DNA from: Escherichia coli
GTDB taxonomy: Bacteria > Pseudomonadota > Gammaproteobacteria > Enterobacterales > Enterobacteriaceae
Strand: one strand, 5' to 3'
NCBI RefSeq assembly: GCF_024223415.1
Contig: NZ_CP100500.1
Length of the DNA stretch: 64,000 nucleotides
Below are positions 3,244-46,343 of this stretch, one piece after another. The translations under genes were made by a program, and so were the position numbers. Position 1 is the first letter of the stretch. Every line of letters starts with the position of its first letter. The notes beneath the pieces were generated by a model. That model searched no databases. It was given only the letters and a program-made list of their open reading frames with translations, and had not been told where the DNA came from.

Positions 3244-3356
3244 CACAGTGCATTTCTTCTCTGTTCATTGAAGGGTCCTCTGTGCAATGCAGACGACATA
3301 AGCGGGCAATAATAACACCAGTCCCGATTAAGTGGTCAACATTTCCAGTACCTTAC

Positions 3357-20484: not shown

Positions 20485-21459
20485 ATGGCGAATATGTTTG
20501 CCCTGATTCTGGTGATTGCCACACTGGTGACGGGCATTTTATGGTGCGTGGATAAATTCTTTTTCGCACCTAAACGGCGGGAACGTCAGGCAGCGGCGCA
20601 GGCGGCTGCCGGTGACTCACTGGATAAAGCAACGTTGAAAAAGGTTGCGCCGAAGCCTGGCTGGCTGGAAACCGGTGCTTCTGTTTTTCCGGTACTGGCT
20701 ATCGTATTGATTGTGCGTTCGTTTATTTATGAACCGTTCCAGATCCCGTCAGGTTCGATGATGCCGACTCTGTTAATCGGTGATTTTATTCTGGTAGAGA
20801 AGTTTGCTTATGGCATTAAAGATCCTATCTACCAGAAAACGCTGATCGAAACCGGTCATCCGAAACGCGGCGATATCGTGGTCTTTAAATATCCGGAAGA
20901 TCCAAAGCTTGATTACATCAAGCGCGCGGTGGGTTTACCGGGCGATAAAGTCACTTACGATCCGGTCTCAAAAGAGCTGACGATTCAACCGGGATGCAGT
21001 TCCGGCCAGGCGTGTGAAAACGCGCTGCCGGTCACCTACTCAAACGTGGAACCGAGCGATTTCGTTCAGACCTTCTCACGCCGTAATGGTGGGGAAGCGA
21101 CCAGCGGATTCTTTGAAGTGCCGAAAAACGAAACCAAAGAAAATGGAATTCGTCTTTCCGAGCGTAAAGAGACACTGGGTGATGTGACGCACCGCATTCT
21201 GACAGTGCCGATTGCGCAGGATCAGGTGGGGATGTATTACCAGCAGCCAGGGCAACAACTGGCAACCTGGATTGTTCCGCCGGGACAATACTTCATGATG
21301 GGCGACAACCGCGACAACAGCGCGGACAGCCGTTACTGGGGTTTTGTGCCTGAAGCGAATCTGGTCGGTCGGGCAACGGCTATCTGGATGAGCTTCGATA
21401 AGCAAGAAGGCGAATGGCCGACAGGTGTGCGCTTAAGTCGCATTGGCGGCATCCATTAA
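20485..21459 (+). CDS. lepB: signal peptidase I
   Basis: 324 aa with the catalytic SGSMMPTL serine motif and GDNRDNSADSRYWG box. Confidence 0.97.
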   Translation: MANMFALILVIATLVTGILWCVDKFFFAPKRRERQAAAQAAAGDSLDKATLKKVAPKPGWLETGASVFPVLAIVLIVRSFIYEPFQIPSGSMMPTLLIGDFILVEKFAYGIKDPIYQKTLIETGHPKRGDIVVFKYPEDPKLDYIKRAVGLPGDKVTYDPVSKELTIQPGCSSGQACENALPVTYSNVEPSDFVQTFSRRNGGEATSGFFEVPKNETKENGIRLSERKETLGDVTHRILTVPIAQDQVGMYYQQPGQQLATWIVPPGQYFMMGDNRDNSADSRYWGFVPEANLVGRATAIWMSFDKQEGEWPTGVRLSRIGGIH

Positions 21460-21473
21460 TAGCCATCTTCGTT

Positions 21474-21502
21474 CACGTTGTCGCCGTTATGGCGACAACG
21501 TG
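21474..21502 (+). terminator. lepB terminator hairpin
   Basis: 12-bp perfect stem cacgttgtcgcc/ggcgacaacgtg with a short loop, followed by an AT-rich tail. Confidence 0.6.
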
Positions 21503-26141: not shown

Positions 26142-26346
26142 TTACCGTTAAATCATTTTAAAATCAGTAAGTTGTATCGAGTTTGTATGCTTTACTGTCA
26201 TTAACTTACTGTATGTTGATCCAGTGTATTTAACCTTGATAAACTCAGTCCAGCAACACAAAACCGCAACACATTGCATTTTGTCCCGTAGAAAAGACTT
26301 GTATGTGTGAGCTTGTTTTCTGCGCCTACGCAGATAAGGATTGAGA

Positions 26347-27744
26347 ATGCCGCGCACTGTAACACATAATCCGGATAGCCCCAATAATGACGATGTTTTA
26401 GCCGCTTCTGAAAAATGGGACGCCTGTAAACCCCCCTATACCAGCGCACACATGAAAATCTGTGTTGCTGCCGCCAAAATCATCCTCGCTGCTTCCGGCG
26501 TGGCTCGCCGTTCCAAATACGAAAAAGAGAACTATCTCCGTATCGATTTCAGCAAAGCCGGTAAGGTTACATTTTACGCCGAGTTTCCAAAAAAGATGGG
26601 CCTCAAAGGTAAAAAGCTCGGCGAGTGGCCGGAGCTCGCTATCCAGCTGGCGCGCGAAAAAGCACTAGGTATGGCTGACGGTGGACTGCGGGCAGAGTCC
26701 GTACATGCAGCGCTGGAAATGTACCGGGATGACCTCAAAGCCAAAGTAGCCCGTCAGAAGCTGAGCCCGGACAGTTTCACAACCTATGGGGTGCGTATCG
26801 ACCGGATTAAATCAACGTTCGGCGAGCGCGAGGTGTTCAGCGACGTAACATACAGTCGGCTGGTGGAAGTGCTGGACGAGTGGATCGCCACTCGCTCGAA
26901 CAATAACGCCCTGGAGTTGTTTGCCGAGCTCCGTCGGTTCTGGAAGTTCTGCGCACCTACTCTTTGCAACGGCCGCAATGTTGCCGCCAGTCTGCCAGAT
27001 GATTATGTTTCCTCCCGCGTACAGAAACCCACCCCCACACGGCTTTTTACCGATATTGAGTCAATCGCCCGGCTCTGGCTCAATGTTGCCGCCTGCACCT
27101 CTGTACACCAGAAGAATGCTGTTCGCTTCATGATCATCACCGGAGTTCGTCCGATTAATGTCCATAACCTGCGCTGGGACTACGTTCACGAGGAGGTTGG
27201 TGAAATTGTTTATCCGGAAGGGGTTATCGGCATGCGAGGGGCTATGAAAACACAAAAGGCTTTCCGCCTGCCGATAACGCCTGAGATCCGGCGGATTATC
27301 GACGAGCAGAAAGCCTGGCGTGATTCAGTTCCTGAGTGCAACAGGGATTATGTATTTTTGCAGCCACGTGATCCAATGCAGCCATTTTCAAAACGATCAC
27401 TGGATAAGCTGGTGAAAACATACAGCCCGGACGGGGCTGTAAAAGGAATAAAACATGATGGGACTGTTAAAGGGAAAGACGGTGCATTTAATACGATGTG
27501 CCGTAAATTCCTTAAGAGCAATGTTATTGCCTTGATGAAGGAAAGAGGCTATTCCCGATCAGACCGAAGGGAAATCAGCCTCCTTTGCCTTCACCACTCC
27601 AGCAAGTCAGATGACCCGATGGCAGAACATTACGACTTTTCTGATGAGATTTTACAGGAAGAGATTGCGTTAAAGCGCGAAGCTTTCGAGGCTCACGAGC
27701 GGAGCATACTTGCGCAGGTGGCATTGCTACGGCGGCGAGGTTAA
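26347..27744 (+). CDS. int: tyrosine integrase (P4-like, N-terminal arm-binding-type domain)
   Basis: ORF 26341..27744. ATG at 26347 after AAGGA (a later start at 26453 is possible). C-terminal catalytic region with R (HNLRWDY), LCLHHS and AEHY tyrosine. Confidence 0.85.
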   Translation: MPRTVTHNPDSPNNDDVLAASEKWDACKPPYTSAHMKICVAAAKIILAASGVARRSKYEKENYLRIDFSKAGKVTFYAEFPKKMGLKGKKLGEWPELAIQLAREKALGMADGGLRAESVHAALEMYRDDLKAKVARQKLSPDSFTTYGVRIDRIKSTFGEREVFSDVTYSRLVEVLDEWIATRSNNNALELFAELRRFWKFCAPTLCNGRNVAASLPDDYVSSRVQKPTPTRLFTDIESIARLWLNVAACTSVHQKNAVRFMIITGVRPINVHNLRWDYVHEEVGEIVYPEGVIGMRGAMKTQKAFRLPITPEIRRIIDEQKAWRDSVPECNRDYVFLQPRDPMQPFSKRSLDKLVKTYSPDGAVKGIKHDGTVKGKDGAFNTMCRKFLKSNVIALMKERGYSRSDRREISLLCLHHSSKSDDPMAEHYDFSDEILQEEIALKREAFEAHERSILAQVALLRRRG

Positions 27745-32613: not shown

Positions 32614-33357
32614 TTAAGATGAAGCGTTCGCTATCTGAGCGTCGCTGAATGTGAAACCCGCCTGTTTAAGACGCTGGATTAAGCGGGGTACTGTCTCCCG
32701 AACATGGTCATTAAAGTTGAGATAAAGAATACCGGCGGCATCAGAAGGCTGCTCAAGGTGTTGTTTCTGCAGGATGACCACGTTACTGCGACCGAGTGAA
32801 GATAACAGCATCCCCATTTCTAAAACTACGTTTTGGCGTGCCCTGGGCTGGGCTGCTTCCTGGCCGTCTCTTTTGGCGTATCCCACATCATCGGGAGTGA
32901 GGAGAACAATGCCGAAACGCGTCGCTGTCCGTCCCTGACCAATTTCACGTTCAAGCTCTTCAATTATCGTAAGCCCGGTCCCACCGGTATTCTGCAAAAT
33001 AAAATGGTCAGGTAATCCAAGCTTATGAAGAATAAGTTCAAGCTGCTCTTTTGCTACATGATCGTGACCGTGAACGATGAAAATCTTTTTTGCTGGTTCT
33101 TGCATCATGACTGGAGCGTTACCCAGGTGTTCATTAATAATGGCTTCAACCTCAGGTTTTGCCGCTTGTGAACCCTGAATCAAAATCGTTCCGGTGTGGT
33201 AAAGCGTTATGATGGCACCATTACTTAAACGATAACAATCATGACCGGTTTTGTTTTCTTCTCCGGTAACATCAAATCCGGATTCGACTAAAAATTGACG
33301 AAAAGTATCGACAGCGTATGGGTATTTGAGTGCCATTTCATTGAGTTCCTGCATCAT
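32614..33357 (-). CDS. TIR-like domain protein (Cap12/PycTIR-type TIR_like) with TBP-fold-like N-terminal domain
   Basis: 247 aa. C-terminal KIFIVHGHD...IVLLTPDDVG...ARQNVVLEMGMLLSSLGR...PSDAAGILY matches the TIR-like family, including the conserved Glu. N-terminal NGAIITLYHTGTILIQGSQ resembles the RNase HIII N-domain. Confidence 0.7.
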   Translation of the reverse strand: MMQELNEMALKYPYAVDTFRQFLVESGFDVTGEENKTGHDCYRLSNGAIITLYHTGTILIQGSQAAKPEVEAIINEHLGNAPVMMQEPAKKIFIVHGHDHVAKEQLELILHKLGLPDHFILQNTGGTGLTIIEELEREIGQGRTATRFGIVLLTPDDVGYAKRDGQEAAQPRARQNVVLEMGMLLSSLGRSNVVILQKQHLEQPSDAAGILYLNFNDHVRETVPRLIQRLKQAGFTFSDAQIANASS

Positions 33358-33410: not shown

Positions 33411-35477
33411 CTAATCTTTTCTGTAACGGTACGCCTCGAATCCTCCGGCGTTTAGTGGAATGCTCGTGGCCCAGTCAGGAACGGTTGCCAGTAACTGGCT
33501 GAGATGTTCTGCTGAGTAATCGGGTGAGTCAGGGGCCTCACTTATAATTTCATCGTGTACCGTCAGCACAATGCTGTAACCGGCATCTTCGATAAGCGGC
33601 ATGTTTCCGGCCAGAACGTCGCGGGCGGCCGCCTGGGTGACGTTCTCCACCAGCTTTCCGCCGTAGGTTTTGAGTCGTTGCCATTTACGCGAATAAGAGT
33701 TAACACCCATATAGGTGATATCCCCTTTTTCGATAACCGGAGACGGGTAGCATACAGCGCGTCCGGATGGTAGCTGTATGCGCAGCCACGCGCCATCGCG
33801 GCGGATTTTAAGATAACCGCAATACAATGTTTTTTGCGGTGTGGCGATTGCAGTGCGGACGGTGCGCTCCAGTTCGTACCAGAAATCGCAGGTCGCCGGG
33901 TGCGCCCTGCGCCACAGGCGCTTGAGCGAGTCACATGCGATGAATACACGCTCGGACAGGCCAAAGGTCGACTTACGTTTAACCGATTCGTCGTACCAGC
34001 TTTTCGCCTCGCGGATAACATCGCGGGGAATGTTTGGCAGTGCGGCGTTCGCCAGCTCGTCGAGATCGAGACCGTAAACCAGAGCAAAAGTGATGAAAGC
34101 CGATACACCACCTCCATAACCCAGACCGAGTTCCATGACTTTACCGATCTGACGCATGTGTTTATCAACATCATCTGGTGCAATATCGAAAGCTTTTGCA
34201 TACGCCAGTTTATATAAGTCCGGACCCGTTCCGGCGTCGTACTCTCTGAATGCATTCAGTTTCCATTCTTCTCCCGCCAGCCATGCCAGCATACGGCCTT
34301 CAATGTTCGACAAGTCACTTACCACCAGTTTTTTGCCTGTTGGCGCGATAATGCAGCCACGTAACGCTGAACTGGTTAGTTCCATGATATTGTCAAACAG
34401 CAGGTCTGCACATCCGGCTTTCAGTGCTTCGATGCCTTCGTCTATTTGTTCCTGTTTTAGTGAAGGGCGGGGAAGGTTCTGGGGCTGGAATAGCCGTCCG
34501 GCCCAACGACCGGTACGTGACGCCCCGCAGAACTGTAGCGTACCGCGTAAGCGCCCGTCGTGGCTTACGCCTTTCATCAGTGCCTTGTATTTACTGGTGC
34601 TGGTAGTACTGGCCTGCAGGCGGATAGCCAGCAGTTCTTTCACGGCAGATGGTAAATTGGGGTCGGCAATACGACGTTCCAGAGTACTGCGTTGCATGTC
34701 TGGTAGCTCCACACCGTAGGATTCAACAATGTGCTTAATCAACGCGTCCCGTTGTGTGGCTGCCTGCACTTCGCCATCAGTCATTTCCTGTGTACGCTTT
34801 GCCAGGCGCTTTTGCTCCTGGTCTACCGCTTCGATCGCAGCGCGCGCGAGTTGAATGTCCATGCAGACGCCCCGGTCGTTGATCTGCTGATCACGATGCC
34901 AGAGTGCCAGTTCTGTCCCCTGATAATTCCACTTCGGCAGACGTTTATAGACTTCGCGCATTGCCTCGATATCCAGTCCGGCGTAAGCAACAAAGCGCCG
35001 CCATTCTTCCGGGTGGGTTTTGCTGGTGGCCCGGCGCAGTTTGCTGTTTTTCGGGCGTGGTTTGCACAGTAGCTGAATTAGTGACTTGCCTTCTTTATCC
35101 TTCGCTTTGTCCTGCGGGACGCCCAGCACTTCGCAAAGAGCGCCCAGCGCCCCCGGAAGACCATGCGCCAGCGCCTGCACCATTGTGTCGCGCCAGCGTT
35201 CAGTAGCTGGTGACATGTCTGGCATACAATGACGAAGTATCGTGCGGTCAAAGTGCGAATTGTGCGCCCAAACCTCCACATCCGGGTTTTTGAGTGCGAG
35301 ACGTAATTCCGGGGGGATTTTTTCGCCTGCGGTCAGGTCCCACACCTGCACGGGATCGTTATTGATGGCCCAGGCAAAAAGCATAATTTCAGCGCCTTCT
35401 GCATATGCGTGGGTACCGTTTTTTATCGGTATTTCAGAGAAGGTTTCAAGATCGAGCCAGAGAATGTTTGCAGGCAA
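33411..35477 (-). CDS. family A DNA polymerase with 3'-5' exonuclease domain
   Basis: 688 aa. Exo motifs [22 protein letters not shown]. Pol motifs DLSNIEGR (A), [16 protein letters not shown] (B), VHDEII (C). Confidence 0.9.
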
Positions 35478-36691: not shown

Positions 36692-37240
36692 TTAAATCAG
36701 TGCTTCAGCATCAGCACCTTCGCTGATATCGTCGAAATCGTCAGCGCTTGCCACTCCGCCGCCAGCGAATGCATCGCCGTCTCGCAGGAACTGGACTCCG
36801 CCGAGTGAGGCATTAATGCGTTTACCGAAATTATTGTCCTGTGCCCAGATATCGATAACGGCGTTTACATAGCACCCTGCATAGGGACGTCCATCAGCCT
36901 GAGTAAGTGGCGAACGATCGCGATCAAGAACAGCCGGGCGCGCTTTGTTAGCAGCATTCAGGAAGAAATTACCGGGGAAACCTTCATACTCTGCTTTTTC
37001 ATCGCCGTCATGCAGGCACAGATTGAGTTTCTTCTCCAGTTGGTTATAAACAGCCTCCCACTTCTCTCCCCATTTTTCCTTTGCGACCTGCTTCATTGCT
37101 TTACGGATTTCTTCCAGTTGTGGGTGTTCGGGAGACATTAAAAATACAGCGGAGAAACGCGGATCGCCTTCGCCGTTTACAGTTTTAGCTTCAAACAGCG
37201 CAGGAAAAGCCAGACGAACATTGTTCAGCTTCAGTTTCAT
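36692..37240 (-). CDS. DUF2815-family phage protein (SSB-like OB fold)
   Basis: The N-terminus MKLKLNNVRLAFPALFEAK and an acidic C-terminal tail (DDFDDISEGADAEALI) are typical of DUF2815 and SSB tails. Confidence 0.7.
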   Translation of the reverse strand: MKLKLNNVRLAFPALFEAKTVNGEGDPRFSAVFLMSPEHPQLEEIRKAMKQVAKEKWGEKWEAVYNQLEKKLNLCLHDGDEKAEYEGFPGNFFLNAANKARPAVLDRDRSPLTQADGRPYAGCYVNAVIDIWAQDNNFGKRINASLGGVQFLRDGDAFAGGGVASADDFDDISEGADAEALI

Positions 37241-37255
37241 TATATGTCTCCTTAA

Positions 37256-38560
37256 TCAGATGAGGTCAGCGGCGAGCGCGTCGTCGGACACGTCATCGAA
37301 ATCATTTACAGGGTTAATATTGAGTGCGGGGCGCGGATCTGAATCAGGAACGACGGTGGGTTTACCGTCCGCTCGTGTTATCAGGGCCTCGACTTTTGGC
37401 CAGCGGCGCGGACTGGCTTTTTTGATGAGTTTTTCTGCTTTGGCAGGGCTAATCAGTTTAAAGTCGAAAACTTCTTCAGTTTTATACCTGAACTGATCCT
37501 TCAGAAGAGCTCGAGCTGCTTCCTCATCACTCCAGGTCCGGTTACCTTGTTTTCCTGTTACCAGTTTAAACCCCGGTACCGTATGCCCGGCATGGAGTTC
37601 ATTGTGAACCCGGTCACGTAGCGCTTTGCAAAAAGACTCAATCAGGTCAACATGGCTGTAAATGTCTGCCAGTTGTTCAGCGGTCAGTAGTGGTACACGC
37701 TTAACGGCATCTGCGAGTTGCTCGCCAACGGGTCTGCTCAGGTCAACGAAGTCGTCCGCAACGGCGTTAAGTCTGGCCTGTGCTTCTGCTGAACACAGCC
37801 CACCTTTTGCTTTACAGAAGAGGCACTGTTTCTCGCCTGGTGTGAAGTTTTCAGGTGGCAGGGTTTCGACGCCTTCGCAATCGGCGATGTTGAACATCAC
37901 GATCACACTGGCGGCAGCTTCCTGCGCCCGTTTGCCGAATGCCTGCAGTTCCTCCACCGTCAGGGACCACTCTGAAACGTGGTTAATCCGCGGCTGGTGG
38001 ATGAACAGGCGCACCGTCTCGAAGTCGTACAGAAGGCTGAACTGCTCGAGCACGCCCAGGGCATACAGCTGCAACTGCTCGTTCTGCTCAGCGTCGACAC
38101 GCACTCCCTTACCGTATTTCAGGTCGTGGATCTGCAGTTCGTTACCCGCGATGATTATGCAGTCGGCAGTTCCGAAAGAGTCTTCCACACCGACGATGTG
38201 GGAGAAGTCTACGCGTTGCTCAACCAGCAGCGTGTTGCCCTGTGCCAGTGACCAGACTGTATCAACATACCGGCCAACGGCTTCGACCATTTCCTCATCC
38301 ACCTGTGGGCCAGATGTATCATCAGGATTTGCGCGAAGGGGGTATGAGCCGAGAAACATAGAAACATTGCATCCGGCGTAGTGTTCCGGGTGACTTTGCC
38401 TGTTTCGCAGGACTTTTTCTGCAAGCGCGTGCGCCGCAGTACCTTCAACAGCAAAGGATGTTTCTTTGTCAGGCTGAGTGGACTCCAGCGCCAGACTGCC
38501 GCTACAACGCATCCATCTGTGGGCGGCTGATGGAGATAATTTTGCATGAACCTCGGGCAT
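37256..38560 (-). CDS. DUF2800-family PD-(D/E)XK (Cas4-like) nuclease
   Basis: The N-terminus [18 protein letters not shown] is the DUF2800 hallmark, with a later D...DLKYGKG nuclease core and a C..C..C cluster. Confidence 0.7.
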
Positions 38561-40266: not shown

Positions 40267-40890
40267 TTATCTTTTGCGGCGGTAAATACGATGTTCAATC
40301 ATGACCCCTACGATCTGTAAGGGGACATCTGCACTTCGTAGCACGGGATAGTCGGGATTCAGGGGGACCAGTTCAAAATCATCAACGCCGATACCCAACG
40401 GGCGGTATTTTTTGAAAGTGGCCTCATACCCGTTGTTCTTTGCAACGACGAATTCGCCAGGCATGGGGCATAAATCCGGGTCAATTATTACAATATCGCC
40501 TTCCTTAAACTCCGGTTGCATACTGTCACCATCTATCCGCAGGGCGAAGCAGGACTCAGGTACGTCGGAATCCGCGAGAACGTATTCCATATTTCCATCC
40601 ATGTCCGTAGCGTCTTTTGCTTCCGTTAGCGCACCGGCCTGTACGTAACTGAGGATCGGGATGCGGCGGGTACTTATTTCCGCCAGGGGCATTATATTCC
40701 TGCCATTTAAAAGCCAGTCGGGACTGCATTTCAGTGCCTTTGAAAGCTCTATGATGTTGCGGGGCTTCCGGGTCTTTCCGCTTTCAATAGTCTCAATGGA
40801 TTGCTGGCTGACCCCCGCGATTGCTGCAACTTCTGTTTGTGTCATCCCGAGTTCTGTACGGCGTGCTTTAAAGCGTTCTGCAAGTGACAT
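40267..40890 (-). CDS. cI: CI-like repressor (HTH_XRE plus S24 LexA-like peptidase)
   Basis: ATG at 40890 after GGGGG. N-terminal HTH (LGMTQTEVAAIAGVSQQSIETIESG). C-terminal GDSM serine and FKK lysine. Confidence 0.9.
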   Translation of the reverse strand: MSLAERFKARRTELGMTQTEVAAIAGVSQQSIETIESGKTRKPRNIIELSKALKCSPDWLLNGRNIMPLAEISTRRIPILSYVQAGALTEAKDATDMDGNMEYVLADSDVPESCFALRIDGDSMQPEFKEGDIVIIDPDLCPMPGEFVVAKNNGYEATFKKYRPLGIGVDDFELVPLNPDYPVLRSADVPLQIVGVMIEHRIYRRKR

Positions 40891-40928
40891 GGTGTACCCC
40901 CTGATTCCTGATTTTTTGCTCTCCCTTA

Positions 40929-40990
40929 TTAATACAATTTTTGTTGTAGTTGACAAACATCATTTATTGTCGCTAAATACCACATAAATT
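40929..40990. promoter_or_regulatory. divergent cI/cro promoter-operator region
   Basis: Plus strand: TTGACA (40950-40955), 18 nt, TAAATA (40974-40979). Minus strand: TTGTCA, 16 nt, TATTAA. Palindromes TACAAnnnnnnTTGTA and GACAA..TTGTC, plus an AAATACCACATA site. Confidence 0.55.
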
Positions 40991-41006: not shown

Positions 41007-41216
41007 ATGACACTTGCTACCCGAGTAAAAAACCAGCGTAAGGCTCTTGGCCTGACGCAGGTTATGCTGGCAGAACGCACAGGGATTAGCCAGCAGGCCA
41101 TTAACCGCATTGAAAGCGGCCTTATATCCCGTCCCCGTTATCTGCTGGAAATAGCTGTTGCCCTGAACTGCGACCCTAACTGGCTGTTGCATGGTACTCC
41201 CGCGGATAAGACGTAA
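41007..41216 (+). CDS. cro: Cro-like HTH_XRE repressor
   Basis: 69 aa, LGLTQVMLAERTGISQQAINRIESG. Divergent from cI. Confidence 0.85.
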   Translation: MTLATRVKNQRKALGLTQVMLAERTGISQQAINRIESGLISRPRYLLEIAVALNCDPNWLLHGTPADKT

Positions 41217-41219
41217 CTT

Positions 41220-43364
41220 ATGGCCCAGATCAATCTCTCATACGGCCGGGAACTGGTAGACAACCTTCCTGTGCCCTGTACTGATGCCGATTTTAACCGG
41301 ACATTTAAGCGTGTTAAAAAGTGGGCTCGTGCTATCGGCGCAACCAAACAGGATACAAAAAGCCAGCTTAACGCCAAAAAAGCGCGTCTGCCCTACATCT
41401 GGCACGCAATGAAGGACGTCACCAAAGGTCGTAACGCTGCTAATGCGGGCAACCGTGATGTGCTCTTCATGGATATGGACGGCTGTAACGCGCCTGCATG
41501 GGGCGCTTTACGCGATGCGCTGGCCTGTTTCTCATGTTTCACCTATTCAACGCCAAGTCATCTGCACCCCACTGCAAACGGGGAACATCGCTGGCGTATC
41601 TGCCTGGAGCTGAGTCGCCAGGTCACGCCCGAAGAGTACAAGCGTCTTGGCCTTGCGGTTGAAAACTGGCTGATGGATTGTATCAGCCTGCTGGACGATT
41701 ACACCGTCAAGTGGGACCACAGCGTTTACAACCCGGACCATATGGTTTTTGCCCCTGATGAAAAGGCCATCTTTGAACGTTTTACCGGGGAACCTGTTGA
41801 CGTTGATATCCTGTTGGCCAGCGCACCGGAAGTTACCATCCCTGAAAAAGCATCTTCCACAGACCGCGATGATTTGTCACGCGCTGTCGAACTGAACGGC
41901 ATCAGTCAGGAAACTTTTGACGACCTGCGCGAAGTGATGTGGCATCCGGCTGTACTGGCAGACGCTGAGCCGGGTTGCGGTAAATACCATAGCTGGGCGG
42001 CGATGGGAAATCGTCTGGCATGGTTTAAGGGAACCGACTGGGAAGACGCAGCCCGTCAGCTTTGGGTCGACTGGTCGATAGCGGGTGGTGGCGATGGCAT
42101 CAGCGCTGAACATAAATGGGACAGTAACCAGCTTACCGCCGAACGAACCGGTTACCAGGCCATTTTCGCCCATGCGCAGAAAGCAGGGGTCGCTAACCCC
42201 GCGACCGACCGTATGCGCGGTTTTGTCGCCGGTGCGAATGACTTCGACGAGTTGCCACCGGAAAAACCGGAGCTGCCAAAGTCCAGACCGCACACAGGCG
42301 GCTACGGTAAGCCGGGAAAGTTCATCATTGAAGGGATGGTGCCGCACGGGGTGACCATGCTCTATGGAGCTTCGTCATCGTTCAAATCCTATGGCGTTAT
42401 CTCCATGCTCTGCCGTGTGGCGACGAAAACTCATCGCTGGGGCGGGCGTAACCTCAAAGGTGGCGCTGTTCTGTATGTTGCCGCTGAGGGTGGCAGCTCC
42501 GTTATGCCGCGTGTCGGCGCATGGGCGGATAAGTACAATGACGGTAAGCCACTGGATTTGTTCTACACCCTGCCACTGGCGGTTGATCTCTCTGTCCCCG
42601 CAAACGTCACAAAGATGGTAAACGAGATTAAGCGCATAGCGTACCACACCGGCGAACCTGTCCGGCTTGTGGCCGTCGACACGCTGTCGCAGTCCATGAT
42701 GCAGGGCGAGGAAAACAGCGCCAGTGATGTGGCAAAATTCATGGCGGGCGCAACCAGGGTGTTCACCGAAACGGGCGCAGCGGTGATTATCGTTCACCAC
42801 AGCGGCAAAGACAGCAGTAAGGGGATGCGTGGCTCTTCTGCTGCCTTTGCTAACGCCGATGCGGTCATTCGCGTGGAACGCATCGGCGACGCGGTGAACC
42901 TGATTAACGAGAAACAGCGTACCGGTCCGGTACAGCCGACCCGCGGTTACATGGTACCGACAGTGCAGCTTCCTGACGACGTTATCGCGGCTAACGAAAC
43001 GTACGATGATGAGTATACCAGCACTGAAGGGGAAGTATATGACCCTGTAAGGCTTACCACCGAGCGCGTGTTTGAAGATGCACCAATGGCGGAGATCACC
43101 CCACTGCTGGTGGATAAGGGCGACGGGAATACCAAAGGCAGCAGCGATGAATCCTGGGTATGGGAAAAGCTGGAGGCCTCCGGCGGCAGCATCAACCGTT
43201 CTGCGCTTCGCGAGTTATGGAAGGATGAAACCGATAAAAGTACCGGTCAGTTACGTGCGGTTCTGGGGCGCATGAAAGAGAAGTATTACATCGTTGAGCG
43301 CGACGGCGTAATCAGGGATCCGCTATGCAATGGCGTACCACCTGGAGGGGATGAAATTGCTTAA
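41220..43364 (+). CDS. bifunctional primase-polymerase / RepA-like (AAA_25) helicase
   Basis: 714 aa. N-terminal AEP-like motifs (FMDMDG; SHLH). C-terminal RecA-fold with Walker A GASSSFKS, Walker B LVAVDTL and IIVHHSGKD. Confidence 0.75.
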   Translation: MAQINLSYGRELVDNLPVPCTDADFNRTFKRVKKWARAIGATKQDTKSQLNAKKARLPYIWHAMKDVTKGRNAANAGNRDVLFMDMDGCNAPAWGALRDALACFSCFTYSTPSHLHPTANGEHRWRICLELSRQVTPEEYKRLGLAVENWLMDCISLLDDYTVKWDHSVYNPDHMVFAPDEKAIFERFTGEPVDVDILLASAPEVTIPEKASSTDRDDLSRAVELNGISQETFDDLREVMWHPAVLADAEPGCGKYHSWAAMGNRLAWFKGTDWEDAARQLWVDWSIAGGGDGISAEHKWDSNQLTAERTGYQAIFAHAQKAGVANPATDRMRGFVAGANDFDELPPEKPELPKSRPHTGGYGKPGKFIIEGMVPHGVTMLYGASSSFKSYGVISMLCRVATKTHRWGGRNLKGGAVLYVAAEGGSSVMPRVGAWADKYNDGKPLDLFYTLPLAVDLSVPANVTKMVNEIKRIAYHTGEPVRLVAVDTLSQSMMQGEENSASDVAKFMAGATRVFTETGAAVIIVHHSGKDSSKGMRGSSAAFANADAVIRVERIGDAVNLINEKQRTGPVQPTRGYMVPTVQLPDDVIAANETYDDEYTSTEGEVYDPVRLTTERVFEDAPMAEITPLLVDKGDGNTKGSSDESWVWEKLEASGGSINRSALRELWKDETDKSTGQLRAVLGRMKEKYYIVERDGVIRDPLCNGVPPGGDEIA

Positions 43365-43379
43365 TTTTACCAATTTGCA

Positions 43380-43620
43380 GAAAGCTACAAATTTGCATAA
43401 AAATGCAAAAATAAAATATATGCAATTTATTTGCATAAATAGTCAGCGCAACAAAAATTTTAAGCAGCAAGCGCAACACGATGCGCAACAGCGCAACAAA
43501 AAATGTTGCGCCGCTGATTTTAAAGGCTTTTTTAACCGCAACAAGAGCAACACGACGGCTAGCGTAGTGGCGCAACACAATACCCCTCTCCCCCCTTTAG
43601 GGGGGAGGGGTTTGTTGCGC
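43380..43620. repeat. candidate phage replication origin: AT-rich TTGCAT/ATGCAA inverted repeats plus GCGCAACA iterons
   Basis: GCGCAACA at 43446, 43471, 43483, 43491 and 43570. Variants at 43536 and 43546. Inverted TGTTGCGC at 43504 and 43613. G/C hairpin at 43583-43610. Confidence 0.6.
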
Positions 43621-43687
43621 CCGAGCCGTTGCGGTTTTTATTCATTTAAATGCATATGCAATGCTGGTGAATGATAAGGGGGTGCAG

Positions 43688-44386
43688 ATGCTGACAGCAA
43701 TCAACAACGAAAAAATTGTCATCGCAAGGGACGCGCAGAAACCGGGAATTTTCGCCTGCCCGGAATGTGGTGAAGTTGTCACCCTGCGGAAAGGTTCGGT
43801 GAAAGTTCACCATTTCGCCCATCGCAGCACCACATCCTGCGGTTACGGGAAAGGCGAATCTGAGTTGCACATGGATTTGAAAATGCAGGTCTATGACGCG
43901 TTGAACGCGCATCGTGAGGTGGAATATGTTGCGATGGAGGTCGCAGTCGGTGATGTTCGTCCCGATGTGCTGGCGATTATTCGGGGTCAGAAGGTTGCTT
44001 TTGAGATTCAGGTTAGTTCGCTGAGTATTGAAGACCTCTATCGCCGCACGGTTGCGTACGCAGCTCAGGACATTGCGATGATCTGGATCCTGCACTGGCC
44101 TGAAGGTACTGCACTGGACCGGCTTTATCACCCTGCATCATGGGAGCGATGGTTACATACTTGCGGAATGGCAACTCTGTACTTCTGGGCGGGCGATGGC
44201 TGGGTCAGGCCAGTGCGTCTGGGAAACCGACAACATGGATTACAAAGAGCACCTCGTGCCCATCTGGTTGATGATTTCGAACCAAAGCGAACAGGCGGGT
44301 GGATTAAAGGTGATTTTCTGATACCTGCTCGCTTTATCTGGAATCGTGTGCGACGGCAAAAACGTAGAGGTCAGAGCTATGCGTAA
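43688..44386 (+). CDS. CoiA-like PD-(D/E)XK nuclease family protein
   Basis: ATG at 43688 after AGGGGG. CPECG...HFAH...C, then GESELH...E...RPDV...FEIQVS...W pattern as in the competence protein CoiA family. Confidence 0.6.
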   Translation: MLTAINNEKIVIARDAQKPGIFACPECGEVVTLRKGSVKVHHFAHRSTTSCGYGKGESELHMDLKMQVYDALNAHREVEYVAMEVAVGDVRPDVLAIIRGQKVAFEIQVSSLSIEDLYRRTVAYAAQDIAMIWILHWPEGTALDRLYHPASWERWLHTCGMATLYFWAGDGWVRPVRLGNRQHGLQRAPRAHLVDDFEPKRTGGWIKGDFLIPARFIWNRVRRQKRRGQSYA

Positions 44387-44813
44387 TATTCAACAGGTTT
44401 TAGAGCGCTGGGGTGGCTGGGCTGCCAATAGCAACACCACAGTGAGCTGGGCTCCAATAGCGGCGGGATTTAAAGGGCTGGTAGTCAGCAGCCTGCCTGG
44501 CAGGCTGAGTTGCTGCGACGACGATGGCCTGATTATCGATGCTTGCGTCTGTCGGCTGCAGCAGGTCCGTAAGCCTGAGGAACTGGACGTCATTATGCTG
44601 TACTACGTCTACGGGTTAAGCAAACGTGAGATAGGACGGCGGCGTCGATGTTCTGAAGGATTTATCCGCCAGCAGTTGCAGGTAGCTGAGGGATTCATTG
44701 AGGGGTGTCTCTGCATGCTGGGTGTGAGCCTTCAGATGGATCCTGAGGTCGAAATTCAAAGGGATGAAAAAAGTATTAGTGCGCTACGCAAAAACTGCGC
44801 TACGCTGGTATGA
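44379..44813 (+). CDS. Q: late-gene antiterminator Q
   Basis: MRNIQQVLERWGGWAANS...AAGFKGL...CCDDDGLIID matches the recalled Q family of 21/933W-type lambdoid phages. Confidence 0.85.
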   Translation: MRNIQQVLERWGGWAANSNTTVSWAPIAAGFKGLVVSSLPGRLSCCDDDGLIIDACVCRLQQVRKPEELDVIMLYYVYGLSKREIGRRRRCSEGFIRQQLQVAEGFIEGCLCMLGVSLQMDPEVEIQRDEKSISALRKNCATLV

Positions 44814-44839
44814 GTTGAATTTCTGACCTCAACGAAGAG

Positions 44840-44862
44840 CTCCAAATTATTGGGGGTTTTTT
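44840..44862 (+). terminator. hairpin plus T6 just downstream of Q
   Basis: ctccaa/ttgggg stem with a 4-nt loop, followed by tttttt. Confidence 0.5.
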
Positions 44863-44940
44863 GTACGCACAACAGGTAATAGTATTGAACCCGCAGACCT
44901 CGCGGAACTGGTGAAAGGTGCCGCGCAGTGCTCTTATCGT

Positions 44941-45067
44941 TGTGGTGAAGCTCAATGGCGAGCTAGCAGATAGGCGACAGTGAAAATACTAGTCATGTAT
45001 CTGACCGCCGCGCGTACTGCAATCGGCAGCGCACCGATGGAAGCCGGTTCGATTCCGGCCGCCACAA
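44941..45067 (+). ncRNA. non-canonical tRNA-like element (127 nt)
   Basis: Perfect T-arm gccgg-TTCGATT-ccggc. The 3' acceptor cgccaca pairs with tgtggtg at 44941. D-arm gctc-aatggc-gagc. Arm atcgg-cagcgca-ccgat. An extra ~57 nt sits between the D-arm and that arm. Confidence 0.3.
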
Positions 45068-45187
45068 CCCAAACTGAGCCGTAGCCACTGGCTGTCCTGA
45101 ACTCCTCAGTGATAGTTACGCTGCGGCCTTCTTTTTCCCCTTCCTAATACAAGAACTACGCAATCCGTTACTGGCGGAGGCGTTGCT

Positions 45188-45403
45188 ATGAAATCAATGG
45201 ACAAAATCTCAACTGGCATTGCCTACGGAACATCCGCTGGTAGTGCGGGATACTGGTTTTTACAGTGGTTGGATCAGGTCAGTCCGTCACAGTGGGCTGC
45301 TATTGGTGTGCTGGGGAGTCTGGCACTGGGCTTTCTGACTTATCTGACGAATCTGTACTTCAAGATAAAAGAGGACCGTCGCAAGGCGGCGCGGGGAGAG
45401 TAA
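45188..45403 (+). CDS. S: class II pinholin (phage 21 S-type), dual-start motif
   Basis: [45 protein letters not shown]... matches recalled S21 (Met1/Met4 starts, two TM segments). Confidence 0.9.
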
Positions 45404-45407
45404 TTCA

Positions 45408-46343
45408 ATGGAACATAATAATGAAAAATCCAGAGAGCACTCTGGAAACAGCAAACATTATTCCATTGCTCATTCATTCGGCGGCTTTCGTGATGTAGTC
45501 GGACAGGGTGCTGAGAGAGAACAGGAGAGTAATACAATGACTCAAAACCATGAACTGGTTGTTAAAGGAACCCGAAATTTTGAGAATAAAATTGCGGTGA
45601 TTTTAACCCTGCGTGACAAAAAGCGTTTTGCCTGTGAGATATTTGACTTACACATCAACCTTGAACGACAGGAAGGCGCCACTCTGGAGTTTTATGAGTC
45701 AGAGGCAATAAAACGGGCAAAGACATTGTTCCGGGATGTTGCTGCAGGGTTATGTGAAGGGGACGAGCTGTCGCCGGAAAAGCGCCCCATAATTTTACAG
45801 GCGCACAATGTGTGGATAACCTACAAAGGAAAGCTACCGGGAAGAATTACTGGTTCTCTGAAGATGCCGCCGTCAACACTGCGGTCAGAAAAAGAGGCGT
45901 CTTGTCTGCAGTCTGAGTACTCCATTACGGTTAAAAGTGCCGGAGAGGAAGGAAATAAACGTTATTTTATTGCGTCTGCACCTGATAAAGATCAGGAATG
46001 GGAGTGTAACCGGCCATCCTTTGTTGTATACGGAGATGGCGGGAAAATAACCATCTCAGAAAATGGGAAATTAACACCGCCATCGCACCAGCATAGTGAG
46101 GCGCTCATTGAATTTGCCATTGATTACCTGAAGAACAATAAAAAGCAGGGGCTGATGAAGCGCATTGGTCGTTGCATGGGATATCTGCAGGTAGCAGCTG
46201 AGATTGAAATGATGGCCAGTGGTGCTGACAATGATGCAGTTGTGCTGGAGGCTCTTCTGCGTGATTTTGATAATACGCCCTTTAAGAAAGCACCTGTTGA
46301 CTGGATGCAGCCGGGGATGACTTATCTGAAAGGGCGTATATAA
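45408..46343 (+). CDS. hypothetical protein inserted in the lysis cassette
   Basis: ORF of 311 aa. An alternative ATG at 45537 with an AGGAGA RBS gives 268 aa. No recognisable motif. Confidence 0.6.
   Translation: MEHNNEKSREHSGNSKHYSIAHSFGGFRDVVGQGAEREQESNTMTQNHELVVKGTRNFENKIAVILTLRDKKRFACEIFDLHINLERQEGATLEFYESEAIKRAKTLFRDVAAGLCEGDELSPEKRPIILQAHNVWITYKGKLPGRITGSLKMPPSTLRSEKEASCLQSEYSITVKSAGEEGNKRYFIASAPDKDQEWECNRPSFVVYGDGGKITISENGKLTPPSHQHSEALIEFAIDYLKNNKKQGLMKRIGRCMGYLQVAAEIEMMASGADNDAVVLEALLRDFDNTPFKKAPVDWMQPGMTYLKGRI

What the first reader, a model, noticed from the sequence alone, without database searches (positions are those of the whole stretch)
43380..43620. Candidate replication origin: AT-rich TTGCAT/ATGCAA inverted repeats followed by at least eight GCGCAACA iterons
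Immediately after the primase-helicase stop codon there is an ~80-bp AT-rich block full of inverted TTGCAT/ATGCAA hexamers, for example tttgcataaaaatgcaaa. It is followed by the octamer GCGCAACA in direct orientation at 43446, 43471, 43483, 43491 and 43570. Close variants lie at 43536 and 43546, and inverted copies (TGTTGCGC) at 43504 and 43613. A G/C-rich hairpin closes the block at 43583-43610. This is the classic arrangement of an iteron array plus a DNA-unwinding element placed next to the initiator gene. The track ORF 43330..43674 merely reads through the repeats.
Basis: seen in the sequence. Interest (0 to 1): 0.45.

Follow-up and report, generated by a model that had tools for sequence, protein, structure and literature searches.

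The report
Prophage replication origin with initiator-matched repeats
The 300 bases after a prophage's primase-helicase gene hold ten copies of an 8-base motif that changes in step with the enzyme's DNA-binding tip across related phages, so this is almost certainly the phage's replication origin, an uncharacterised example of a known type.

Summary
Seven exact GCGCAACA copies, two one-mismatch copies and one two-mismatch copy lie in 43446-43634, against four copies in the other 63.8 kb. An 81-bp block at 78% A+T precedes them, and a G/C hairpin sits at 43583-43610.

The origin reading is well supported in silico.
- Thirteen related loci in ten bacterial genera or samples keep the same layout: direct repeats, a central AT box, more direct repeats, a GC hairpin, then inverted repeats.
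- Every repeat copy switches together among seven to eight motifs (GCGCAACA, GCGGGACA, GCGTGGCA, GCGTGACA, GCGTAACA, GCGTTACA, GTGTGCCA).
- Repeat type tracks the recognition helix of a C-terminal winged-helix domain in the 714-aa protein (Mantel p=0.0012). It does not track the protein core or the Cro type.
- The protein is an AEP primase-polymerase joined to a RepA-like helicase and a winged helix.
- The annotated ORF 43330-43674 is not coding.

Two refinements:
- The element conserved across the family is the 21-bp AT box (43515-43535) between oppositely oriented repeats, not the left AT block.
- The closest analogues are the SaPI/PICI rep-ori modules and P4 alpha/crr, not classic plasmid iterons.

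No replication or binding experiment exists for this family. Verdict: new member of a known kind, of moderate interest.

The parts
41220..43364 (+). Initiator gene, 714 aa. Domains: AEP primase-polymerase (about aa 1-205), a PriCT-2-like helical region (about aa 225-340), a RepA/DnaB-like helicase (AAA_25, aa 368-532), a linker, and a C-terminal winged helix.
   Evidence: Pfam AAA_25 scores E=3.9e-28. A profile of the family hits RSF1010 RepA, PDB 1g8y. The N-terminal AlphaFold2 model (pLDDT 82.7) matches AEP prim-pol folds, with cyanophage S-2L PrimPol at E=5e-5. D85xD87 and S113-H114-x-H116 are invariant. Orthologues carry Pfam PriCT_2.
43143..43319 (+). Codons for the C-terminal winged-helix domain (aa 642-700). 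The recognition helix H3 is aa 675-687 (TGQLRAVLGRMKE), at nt 43242-43280.
   Evidence: The AlphaFold2 model has topology H-b-H-H-b-b with pLDDT 85-89. All Foldseek matches are winged-helix domains. H3 identity tracks repeat type.
43365..43445 (.). Left AT-rich block (78% A+T) with five TGCA-centred repeats: TTTGCAG, TTTGCAT, ATGCAA, ATGCAA and TTGCAT. It is a possible auxiliary unwinding or bending region.
   Evidence: It is present in most relatives but absent in the Xenorhabdus loci and L022.
43446..43453 (+). Repeat 1, GCGCAACA
43471..43478 (+). Repeat 2, GCGCAACA
43483..43490 (+). Repeat 3, GCGCAACA
43491..43498 (+). Repeat 4, GCGCAACA. It abuts repeat 3 and forms the palindrome GCGCAACA-AAAAA-TGTTGCGC with repeat 5.
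43504..43511 (-). Repeat 5, inverted (TGTTGCGC on the + strand)
43515..43535 (.). Central AT box TGATTTTAAAGGCTTTTTTAA, flanked by oppositely oriented repeats 5 and 6. This is the proposed melting site.
   Evidence: It is nearly invariant in the six-locus alignment. A 77-95% A+T box sits at the same place in the layout in 11 of 13 loci by script. The box is also visible in L004 and L015.
43536..43543 (+). Repeat 6, CCGCAACA (one mismatch)
   Evidence: the slot covaries in relatives
43545..43552 (+). Repeat 7, GAGCAACA (one mismatch). It is exact GCGCAACA in E. coli F1022.
43570..43577 (+). Repeat 8, GCGCAACA. It is the left outer arm of the long palindrome 43569-43621.
43583..43610 (.). G/C-rich hairpin CCCCTCTCCCCCC-TTTA-GGGGGGAGGGG
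   Evidence: Folding z-scores are -4.8 as DNA and -5.3 as RNA. Compensatory changes occur in relatives: CG to AU in three loci and CG to UA in two.
43613..43620 (-). Repeat 9, inverted. It is the right outer arm of the palindrome.
43627..43634 (-). Repeat 10, inverted and degenerate (CGTTGCGG, two mismatches)
   Evidence: Read from the sequence. The slot carries the locus-specific motif in relatives.
43635..43664 (.). Right-hand conserved flank, TTTTTATTCA followed by CATATGCAATGC. Its role is unknown.
   Evidence: It is conserved in six loci even where the downstream gene differs.
43330..43674 (+). ORF that reads through the repeats. RefSeq annotates it as a hypothetical protein in F1022. It is judged not to be a gene.
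   Evidence: Substitutions show no codon-phase bias (20/10/21, 13/13/15, 21/14/20, 33/28/32), whereas the helicase control gives 27/20/81 and similar. The frame is broken in seven or more relatives. Only 14 close homologues exist among 5.8 billion proteins. It has no Pfam or PHROG hit.

Best explanation
The interval 43365-43664 is the origin of vegetative replication of a lambdoid E. coli prophage. The origin is recognised by the 714-aa protein encoded immediately upstream.

Proposed mechanism:
1. After induction, rightward early transcription (cro, then the initiator gene) makes the AEP primase / RepA-like helicase / winged-helix protein and also passes through the origin.
2. The winged-helix recognition helix (aa 675-687) binds the ten GCGCAACA repeats. 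These sit as two groups around a conserved 21-bp AT box. The repeats next to the box point in opposite directions.
3. Helicase rings assemble on the repeat arrays and melt the AT box. The 81-bp left AT block may help.
4. The rings load themselves onto single strands without a separate loader.
5. The protein's own AEP domain lays the first primers. The phage's family-A polymerase, Enc34-type single-strand-binding protein and nuclease module then take over.
6. The conserved GC hairpin, clamped between an inverted pair of repeats, is either a single-strand priming or structural signal of the origin, or a weak terminator that meters read-through towards the antiterminator Q gene.

Shown here: the repeat cluster, its conserved layout, the concerted motif switching, its association with the recognition helix, the three domain folds, and the non-coding status of the ORF.

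Inferred: binding, the melting site, self-loading, priming, and the direction of replication.
For: Cluster statistics.

Genomic context:
- The region lies between the replicase gene and the CoiA and Q genes of a prophage.
- The prophage has a cI/Cro switch and its own PolA, single-strand-binding protein, DUF2800 nuclease and SNF2 helicase module.

Conserved layout: thirteen related loci keep the order of 3-5 direct repeats, the AT box, 2-4 direct repeats, the GC hairpin and 1-3 inverted repeats. The sources are Mixta, Salmonella, Arsenophonus, Erwinia, Klebsiella, Serratia, Xenorhabdus, an IMG/VR contig and others.

Concerted switching:
- All copies switch together among seven 6-mer cores, and the cross-count matrix is cleanly diagonal.
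- The spacers, AT box and hairpin stay alignable across motif types.
- Relative to the spacers, repeat columns are more conserved between same-type loci (9% against 17% different). They are more diverged between different-type loci (41-44% against 26-28%).

Link to the winged helix:
- Repeat distance correlates with recognition-helix identity (Mantel r=-0.50, p=0.0012) but not with the protein core (r=+0.18, p=0.91).
- The Klebsiella protein is 81% identical in the core yet has a different repeat.
- The Arsenophonus protein is 59% identical yet has the same repeat.

Independence from the immunity region: the Cro proteins of L014 and L015 are 70% identical while their repeats differ. The window's Cro is unrelated to that of L015 while the repeats are the same.

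Domain folds.

Parallel cases:
- Sister replicases with a VapE-type helicase (APSE-1 and a Salmonella prophage) carry their own repeats around an (AT)n core at the same position.
- A PICI-like element with a homologous helicase and winged helix also carries its own repeats at the same position.
- Experimentally characterised analogues have the same design. These are the SaPI Rep/ori (PMC9371898), the Gram-negative PICI rep-ori (PMC6092414) and P4 alpha with crr.
Against: - There is no experimental evidence of binding, melting or autonomous replication for this family.
- No isolated phage or plasmid in the searched collections carries the full-length protein.
- The winged-helix codons lie within 50-220 bp of the repeats. 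Co-inheritance by recombination alone would therefore produce some association. The argument against pure linkage is that the spacers stay conserved while ten dispersed copies change identically.
- The hairpin followed by TTTGTT also scores as an intrinsic terminator, so part of the region may serve transcription.
- Repeat spacing is irregular: 25, 12, 8, 13, 32, 9, 25, 43 and 14 bp.
- GC skew cannot help. Its change near 42-43 kb coincides with the switch in gene orientation.
Confidence: 0.8

Rival explanations
1. The array is an auxiliary cis site, not the start site of replication. On this reading it works like the P4 crr enhancer, or as a copy-control or handcuffing site. The helicase still binds it, but DNA opening and priming occur elsewhere in the prophage.
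For: In P4 the repeat array directly after the alpha gene is crr, and the origin proper lies 4.5 kb away. The layout here is positionally the same as crr.
Against: No second GCGCAACA cluster exists in the 64-kb window. None exists in the rest of the closely related F1022 prophage. In SaPI and PICI elements, the array downstream of rep is itself the origin. A conserved AT box sits inside the array.
Confidence: 0.1
2. The region is mainly a transcriptional control region between the replication gene and the CoiA and Q genes. The hairpin is a tR2-like terminator, and the repeats bind a regulator that times late-gene expression, with no role in replication.
For: The terminator scan flags 43585-43610 followed by TTTGTTGC, and also 43491-43511. 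The hairpin folds strongly as RNA. Transcription must cross this region to reach Q.
Against: The T-run after the stem is short, and it is lost in the Xenorhabdus (TGTCACG) and Serratia (CTGTTACG) loci even though the hairpin is kept. Repeats do not track the Cro or cI type, but they do track the helicase's winged helix. The array stays with the helicase gene when the downstream gene changes, as in Mixta, L009, L011 and L015.
Confidence: 0.07
3. The region encodes a real small protein: ORF 43330/43351-43674, which RefSeq annotates as hypothetical protein WP_029490148.1 in E. coli F1022. On this reading the repeats are just a repetitive coding sequence.
For: The ORF is open for 112-125 codons in the window, L015, L017, L004 and L008. 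Automatic pipelines call it a gene.
Against: Substitutions are spread evenly over the three codon phases, whereas the adjacent helicase shows a 3- to 5-fold third-position excess. The frame is interrupted in L011, L002, L009, L010, L014, L003, L024 and L022 while the DNA layout is kept. Only 14 homologues exist, all from close relatives. It has no Pfam or PHROG match.
Confidence: 0.03

Closest known systems
SaPI and PICI rep-ori replicons: S. aureus pathogenicity islands (PMC9371898) and Gram-negative PICIs such as EcCICFT073 (PMC6092414)
   Same: The origin lies immediately 3' of the initiator-helicase gene. It has 6-12 very short repeats in two sets flanking an AT-rich centre, with repeats on the two sides in opposite orientation. 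The repeats are recognised by a C-terminal winged helix of a self-loading helicase, and a primase is fused or adjacent. A PICI-like E. coli element carries a homologous helicase and winged helix (29% identity, E=5e-30) followed by its own AAGTGAGG repeats.
   Different: This element is a full-size lambdoid prophage with structural genes, not a satellite. SaPI Reps are AAA+ helicases related to the MCM and SF3 groups, whereas this helicase is RecA-fold AAA_25/RepA-like. The EcCICFT073 replicase is annotated as a 'DNA primase family protein' and shares only about 100 nt with the RepA-type PICI gene, so the experimentally tested PICI origin belongs to a different replicase. The repeats here are 8 bp. 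A conserved GC hairpin sits between inverted repeats, which the passages I read do not mention for SaPI or PICI origins.
Satellite phage P4: alpha protein with ori and crr
   Same: One polypeptide combines primase, helicase and a C-terminal winged-helix origin binder. The repeats are 8 bp (TGTTCACC), occur in both orientations, and are packed at 9-10 bp spacing. An array lies directly downstream of the gene after a hairpin or terminator. An automatically predicted ORF reads through the repeats there too (the domain roles come from established knowledge and the discussion in PMC4234260).
   Different: P4 alpha is, by established knowledge, a TOPRIM primase with an SF3 helicase, whereas this protein is AEP plus RepA-like. 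The C-terminal domains show no sequence similarity (E=2.6). P4 needs two separated sites, ori and crr, whereas only one cluster exists here.
IncQ plasmid RSF1010: RepA helicase, RepB' primase, RepC iteron binder and oriV
   Same: RSF1010 RepA is the nearest solved helicase by sequence. By established knowledge, oriV combines iterons, an AT-rich stretch and hairpin-forming single-strand initiation signals used by a plasmid primase. That parallels the repeats, AT box and hairpin found here.
   Different: Three separate proteins in RSF1010 correspond to one fused polypeptide here. RSF1010 iterons are about 20 bp, all direct, and bound by RepC. The similarity to RepA is weak (E=0.0037 over 57 residues).
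pRN1 ORF904 of Sulfolobus and related phage replicases
   Same: The protein is an AEP prim-pol plus helicase plus C-terminal winged helix. The origin lies just downstream of the gene and contains an essential stem-loop (PMC4234260).
   Different: The pRN1 helicase is SF3, and its origin has no iterons (as stated in PMC4234260). Here the repeats dominate and the hairpin is short.
Phage lambda O protein and ori-lambda
   Same: Both are lambdoid early-right operon replicons. Both have an origin made of repeats plus an AT-rich region, with transcription passing through it (established knowledge).
   Different: The lambda origin lies inside the O gene, has four 18-19-bp repeats, and needs P protein plus host DnaB and DnaG. 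Here the origin is intergenic, and the initiator itself carries the helicase and primase.

Membership tests
Iteron-type replication origin (generic) | A cluster of at least three copies of a short motif, far above chance | tested here: met
   There are 7 exact and 3 near copies in 190 bp, against 4 copies in 63.8 kb elsewhere.
Iteron-type replication origin (generic) | An AT-rich, easily melted stretch adjoining or inside the array | tested here: met
   The left block is 81 bp at 78% A+T. The central box region is 71-77% A+T and conserved.
Iteron-type replication origin (generic) | The cognate initiator is encoded next to the array and has a sequence-specific DNA-binding domain for the repeats | tested here: inconclusive
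   The gene is adjacent, and a winged-helix fold is predicted. Repeat type covaries with the recognition helix. Binding itself was not measured.
Iteron-type replication origin (generic) | The fragment supports replication when the initiator is supplied | not testable with these tools
   This needs trans-complementation or marker-frequency experiments.
SaPI/PICI rep-ori organisation | The origin lies immediately 3' of rep. Two sets of short repeats flank an AT-rich centre, with opposite orientations on the two sides. | tested here: met
   Repeat 5 (-) and repeat 6 (+) flank the AT box at 43515-43535. The layout is conserved in 13 loci.
SaPI/PICI rep-ori organisation | The element is a phage-dependent satellite island with no full set of structural genes | tested here: not met
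   The terminase, portal, capsid, tail, lysis, Q and cI/Cro genes are all present.
SaPI Rep helicase family | An AAA+ ATPase core related to the MCM and SF3 groups | tested here: not met
   The core is Pfam AAA_25 (E=3.9e-28), and the nearest structure is RSF1010 RepA.
P4 alpha family | A TOPRIM primase plus an SF3 (D5-like) helicase | tested here: not met
   The N-terminus has the AEP fold and the helicase is AAA_25.
P4 alpha family | A bipartite cis requirement, with ori and a distant crr | tested here: not met
   There is a single cluster in the window and in the rest of the F1022 prophage.
AEP primase-polymerase superfamily (N-terminal domain) | The AEP fold with the acidic DxD motif and the sxH motif | tested here: met
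   Foldseek's best hits are AEP prim-pols. D85, D87, S113, H114 and H116 are invariant in 17-35 homologues.
Protein-coding gene (ORF 43330-43674) | Third-codon-position excess of substitutions, and a reading frame conserved among relatives | tested here: not met
   Phase counts are flat and the frame is broken in eight relatives.
Intrinsic (rho-independent) terminator (hairpin 43583-43610) | A GC-rich stem followed directly by a conserved U-tract | tested here: inconclusive
   The stem is conserved with compensatory changes. The tail TTTGTTGC passes the scan in the window but is not kept in Xenorhabdus or Serratia.
Known RNA families (Rfam 15) | A match at or above the gathering score | tested here: not met
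   The only hits are sub-threshold chance matches: SprD at 21 bits against a threshold of 100, and DapZ at 20 bits against 56.

The most novel reading that the evidence does not exclude
The last roughly 75 codons of the replicase (the winged helix) and the adjoining repeat array form a single swappable specificity cassette. It has diversified into at least seven or eight mutually orthogonal replicon types: GCGCAACA, GCGGGACA, GCGTGGCA, GCG/GTGTGACA, GCGTAACA, GCGTTACA and GTGTGCCA.

If so, three things would follow:
- Residues 2-3 and 5 positions after the invariant Arg of helix H3 (AV-G, RE-N, KE-K, VT-G, LA-Y and so on) would specify bases 4-6 of the repeat. That would be a readable recognition code.
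- The cassette would set replication compatibility between co-resident prophages and PICI satellites that use homologous helicases.
- The GC hairpin clamped by inverted repeats would be a single-strand initiation signal for the fused AEP primase, analogous to the RSF1010 ssi sites, and not a terminator.
Probability: 0.3. Interest if true: 0.6.

Novelty: new member of a known kind. Interest (0 to 1): 0.45.

Why it matters
- It gives a precise, testable cis-acting origin and a candidate protein-DNA recognition code for a replicon. That replicon is common in prophages of Salmonella and also found in E. coli, Klebsiella, Serratia, Erwinia and insect symbionts. It is absent from the isolated-phage and plasmid collections I searched.
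- It shows that the origin organisation described as unique to PICI satellites (PMC6092414) also occurs in complete temperate phages, including the APSE phages of aphid symbionts. This bears on where satellite replicons came from.
- It flags mis-annotated 'hypothetical proteins' that are only repeat arrays, here and probably APSE-1 P4.
- The seven or eight naturally orthogonal repeat and winged-helix pairs could be used as compatible replicon parts.

Tried and rejected
- DNA searches with the origin region found nothing in the phage collection. In E. coli they found a single genome out of 5426. Comparative work therefore had to start from the protein.
- The scan of one genome per species returned only six loci.
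- A viral-contig scan with the AT-box pattern was a poor choice. The pattern is AT-rich, so nearly all 120 stretches were chance hits. Only two carried the hairpin nearby, and both were already known.
- Pfam on the isolated N- and C-terminal parts found nothing. Structure prediction was needed.
- The plasmid search found no full-length homologue, so there is no natural mini-replicon to lean on.
- Literature searches for the APSE or lambdoid primase-helicase origins found nothing specific.
- GC skew was considered as origin evidence and rejected, because it is confounded with gene orientation.
- DnaA boxes were considered. TTATGCAAA occurs twice on the - strand (43392-43400 and 43430-43438, 8 of 9 matches). 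TTATTCA(C/T)N lies at the right edge, and the Salmonella locus L015 has a perfect TTATTCACA there. In relatives the left-block motif degenerates to phased TGCAAAA, so I do not claim DnaA involvement.
- An IHF site in the AT box was considered and dropped. Only the ATCA(A/G) core matches; the TTR part does not (my reading).
- The sigma-70 scan found no promoter in the region.
Full report
**1. What is there**

The window holds host genes up to about 26.3 kb. A lambdoid prophage follows, integrated next to yfhL.
- The prophage's left arm carries an integrase (26341-27744), an SNF2 helicase, a TIR-domain protein and a family-A DNA polymerase (33411-35477).
- It also carries an Enc34-type single-strand-binding protein (36692-37240) and a DUF2800 nuclease (37256-38560). 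All of these genes except the integrase (+ strand) are on the minus strand.
- Next come a LexA-like cI repressor (40267-40956, -) and a Cro-like gene (41007-41216, +).
- These are followed by a 714-aa ORF (41220-43364, +), a non-coding gap, a CoiA-like nuclease gene, and the antiterminator Q gene (44346-44813).
- The stretch 41376-45410 is 96.5% identical to a prophage of E. coli F1022. The rest of the element is mosaic relative to that prophage.
- The origin region itself matched only that one genome out of 5426 complete E. coli genomes, and no record in the phage collection.

**2. The observation**

- GCGCAACA occurs seven times exactly in 43446-43620. It occurs four times in the remaining 63.8 kb.
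- With a shuffle mean of 4.57 per 64 kb, 175 bp should hold about 0.012 copies. The Poisson probability of seven or more is of order 1e-17. This is my arithmetic; the script underflowed to 0.
- It is the top local 8-mer cluster in the window.
- Two one-mismatch copies lie at 43536 and 43545. A two-mismatch inverted copy at 43627-43634 brings the total to ten.
- The block 43365-43445 is 78% A+T and holds four of the window's 29 TTGCAT/ATGCAA hexamers.
- The hairpin at 43583-43610 is real. It is the core of a longer palindrome, 43569-43621, whose outer arms are repeats 8 and 9.

**3. The protein upstream**

- Pfam finds only AAA_25 (aa 368-532, E=3.9e-28). A profile of 17 homologues hits RSF1010 RepA in the PDB.
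- An AlphaFold2 model of aa 1-345 (pLDDT 82.7) matches AEP primase-polymerases. The matches include cyanophage S-2L PrimPol (E=5e-5), the LigD polymerase domain, Prim-PolC and herpesvirus primase.
- The acidic DxD motif (D85, D87) and S113-H114-x-H116 are invariant. Xenorhabdus orthologues score for Pfam PriCT_2.
- A model of aa 601-714 shows a disordered linker followed by a confident winged helix (aa 642-700, pLDDT 85-89). Its structural neighbours are all winged-helix domains, including the MCM C-terminal domain, BlaI/MecI, Z-alpha and Crp/FNR.
In addition, the protein ends in a DNA-binding domain.

**4. Comparative evidence (the decisive part)**

Homologues range from 89% down to 51% identity. 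I recovered their loci from genome, viral and assembly collections.

*Conserved layout.* Every locus has the same layout just after the stop codon: 3-5 direct repeats (often with one inverted copy), an AT box of 77-95% A+T, 2-4 direct repeats, a GC hairpin, and then 1-3 inverted repeats.

*Concerted motif switching.* The motif differs from locus to locus:

| Motif | Loci |
|---|---|
| GCGCAACA | E. coli, Mixta, Salmonella L015, L017, Arsenophonus, Izhakiella |
| GCGGGACA | Erwinia |
| GCGTGGCA | Klebsiella |
| GCGTGACA or GTGTGACA | Xenorhabdus, L009 |
| GCGTAACA | Serratia |
| GCGTTACA | L014 |
| GTGTGCCA | L022 |

- A cross-count of the 6-mer cores is cleanly diagonal, with 6-9 copies of each locus's own core and none of the others.
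- In the six-locus alignment, several elements stay aligned while every repeat slot flips to the local motif. They are the AT box TGATTTTAAAGGnTTTTTTAA, the spacer ACGGCTAGCG, the hairpin, CCGAGCC, and the right flank TTTTTATTCA...CATATGCAATGC.
- Repeat columns are better conserved than spacers between same-type loci (9% against 17% different).
- Repeat columns are worse conserved between different-type loci (41-44% against 26-28%, Fisher p=0.02-0.03).

*Association with the recognition helix.*
- Repeat type does not follow overall relatedness. The Klebsiella protein is 81% identical to the window's over aa 1-620 but uses GCGTGGCA. The Arsenophonus protein is 59% identical and uses GCGCAACA.
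- Repeat type does follow the winged helix. Mean helix-H3 identity is 0.74 for same-repeat pairs and 0.38 for different-repeat pairs.
- The Mantel correlation is r=-0.50 (p=0.0012) for H3 and r=+0.18 (p=0.91) for the core.
- H3 reads (Q/I)(L/F)R(A/T)V(L/I)(G/S)RMK in all GCGCAACA loci.
- For the other motifs H3 reads as follows:

| H3 sequence | Repeat |
|---|---|
| TFRRELNRMK | GGGACA type |
| TLRKEIKRMR | GTGGCA type |
| SFRVTLGRLK | GTAACA type |
| SLRLALYRMK | GTTACA type |

*Caveat on linkage.* The winged-helix codons and the repeats are neighbours on the DNA. Linkage alone would therefore give some association. Linkage does not explain ten dispersed sites changing identically while their spacers persist.

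*Independence from immunity.* The repeats do not track the immunity region. L014 and L015 have 70%-identical Cro proteins but different repeats. The window and L015 have unrelated Cro proteins but the same repeat.

**5. The ORF**

The ORF 43330-43674 is annotated in RefSeq as a hypothetical protein.
- Substitutions against four relatives fall evenly on the three codon phases (20/10/21, 13/13/15, 21/14/20, 33/28/32).
- The last 600 nt of the helicase gene give 27/20/81, 26/18/96, 22/18/93 and 38/31/85.
- The frame is interrupted in eight relatives that keep the DNA layout.
- Only 14 proteins among 5.8 billion resemble it, all from close relatives.
- It has no family match.
- The motif contains no stop codon in any frame on either strand, which explains why the frame stays open.

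**6. The hairpin**

- The inner stem shows compensatory changes: CG to AU in three loci and CG to UA in two. The structure is therefore selected.
- The outer-stem 'covariation' is simply the repeat switch and is not independent evidence.
- The hairpin folds strongly both as DNA (z=-4.8) and as RNA (z=-5.3).
- The terminator scan accepts it. However, the T-run is only TTTG before the next repeat. It is lost in Xenorhabdus and Serratia, where the hairpin persists.
- I therefore leave two roles open: an origin structural or priming element, or a weak terminator that modulates read-through to Q. These two roles are not exclusive.
- No Rfam family matches.

**7. Which AT-rich part matters**

- The 81-bp left block with the TGCA-centred repeats is present in most loci. 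It is absent in the two Xenorhabdus loci and in L022, where the first repeat starts 17-18 nt after the stop codon.
- The central box is found everywhere and is flanked by repeats of opposite orientation.
[quoted passage not shown] The left block would then be an accessory.
- This is an inference. Under superhelical stress, the longer left block could open first in this particular phage.

**8. Comparison with known systems**

- The layout is that of SaPI/PICI rep-ori modules (PMC9371898, PMC6092414) and of P4 alpha with crr (GenBank annotation).
- The proteins are not members of those families. This helicase is RepA-like and the primase is AEP. The winged helix shows no sequence similarity to that of P4 alpha.
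- Only one repeat cluster exists in the prophage.
- Sister replicases share the N-terminal AEP domain but carry a VapE-type helicase (APSE-1 and a Salmonella prophage). They have their own repeats (GGTTGTTAC and GGTTGGGAC) in inverted sets around an (AT)n core at the same position.
- A PICI-like element has a homologous helicase and winged helix (29% identity, E=5e-30) followed by AAGTGAGG repeats. That gene type occurs in at least 557 of 5426 E. coli genomes.
- The experimentally validated EcCICFT073 replicon appears to use a different replicase. It supports the design, not this family.
[quoted passage not shown] The present loci show it in complete temperate phages.

**9. Verdict**

- This is a previously uncharacterised member of a known kind of origin. 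A neat natural series of switched specificities makes it experimentally attractive.
- Confidence that it is the origin bound by the upstream protein is about 0.8. Interest is 0.45.

Noticed in passing
window 32614-33357 (-): A 247-aa ORF in the prophage's early-left arm, next to the polymerase gene, carries a CAP12/Pycsar-effector-type TIR domain (Pfam PF10137, E=5.6e-31). It may be defence or counter-defence cargo.
   Followed up: no
window 43324-43332, 43419-43427, 43655-43663: The motif TATGCAAT(G/T) occurs three times and brackets the repeat array. The right-hand copy lies in a block, CATATGCAATGC, that is invariant in six loci even when the downstream gene differs. Together with the TGCA-centred repeats of the left block, it may be a site for a second, unidentified factor.
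   Followed up: partly
window 43392-43400 and 43430-43438 (- strand); 43637-43645: There are DnaA-box-like 9-mers. TTATGCAAA occurs twice (8 of 9 matches to TTATNCACA). TTATTCATT lies at the right edge, and the same slot is a perfect TTATTCACA in the Salmonella locus L015. The whole window has 53 such near-matches, and the left-block copies are not conserved in relatives.
   Followed up: partly
window 43545-43552 vs L001 20246-20253: One of the few differences between the window and E. coli F1022 in this region lies in repeat 7. The window has GAGCAACA and F1022 has the exact GCGCAACA.
   Followed up: yes
L012 (APSE-1, NC_000935.1) 3342-3700; L013 5018-5200: Replicases with the same AEP N-terminus but a VapE-type helicase have their own repeats (GGTTGTTAC in APSE-1, GGTTGGGAC in Salmonella). 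These sit as inverted sets around an ATATATATAT core directly after the gene. The annotated APSE-1 ORF P4 (3445-3666) reads through them and may be spurious, like the ORF here.
   Followed up: partly
L149 (E. coli plasmid NZ_CP031350.1) 2566-4170: A PICI-like element (AlpA, Icd-like, PerC and capsid genes) encodes a 466-aa RepA-family helicase with a similar C-terminal winged helix, followed by AAGTGAGG repeats in both orientations. This gene type is found in 1395 of 5426 complete E. coli genomes, 557 of them at 80% coverage or more. CFT073 shares only its first ~100 nt, under a 'DNA primase family protein' annotation.
   Followed up: partly
window 43688-44386 (+): A CoiA-like nuclease gene sits between the origin and Q. 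Its start is probably the ATG at 43688, not the one at 43661. The gene is present in the Erwinia, Xenorhabdus, Klebsiella and Serratia loci and in L022. It is absent in Mixta, L009, L011 and L015, so it is optional cargo and not part of the origin module.
   Followed up: partly
window 21302-21492: This is the second-best local 8-mer cluster (GCGACAAC, four copies). It lies at the 3' end of lepB, where the codons GDNRDNS repeat the motif, and in the hairpin just after the gene. It is ordinary.
   Followed up: yes
window 26300-64000 vs L001: The prophage is mosaic relative to the F1022 prophage at the same yfhL-side integration site. Blocks of 88-98% identity alternate with unrelated segments at 29.3-33.5, 35.3-36.7, 39.8-41.4 and 48.6-51.8 kb.
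   Followed up: no
protein aa ~625-640 (nt ~43090-43140): Identity to relatives drops abruptly at the helicase/winged-helix linker. For the Klebsiella protein it falls from 81% before the linker to 40% after it. This suggests a recurrent recombination joint that moves the winged helix and the origin together.
   Followed up: partly
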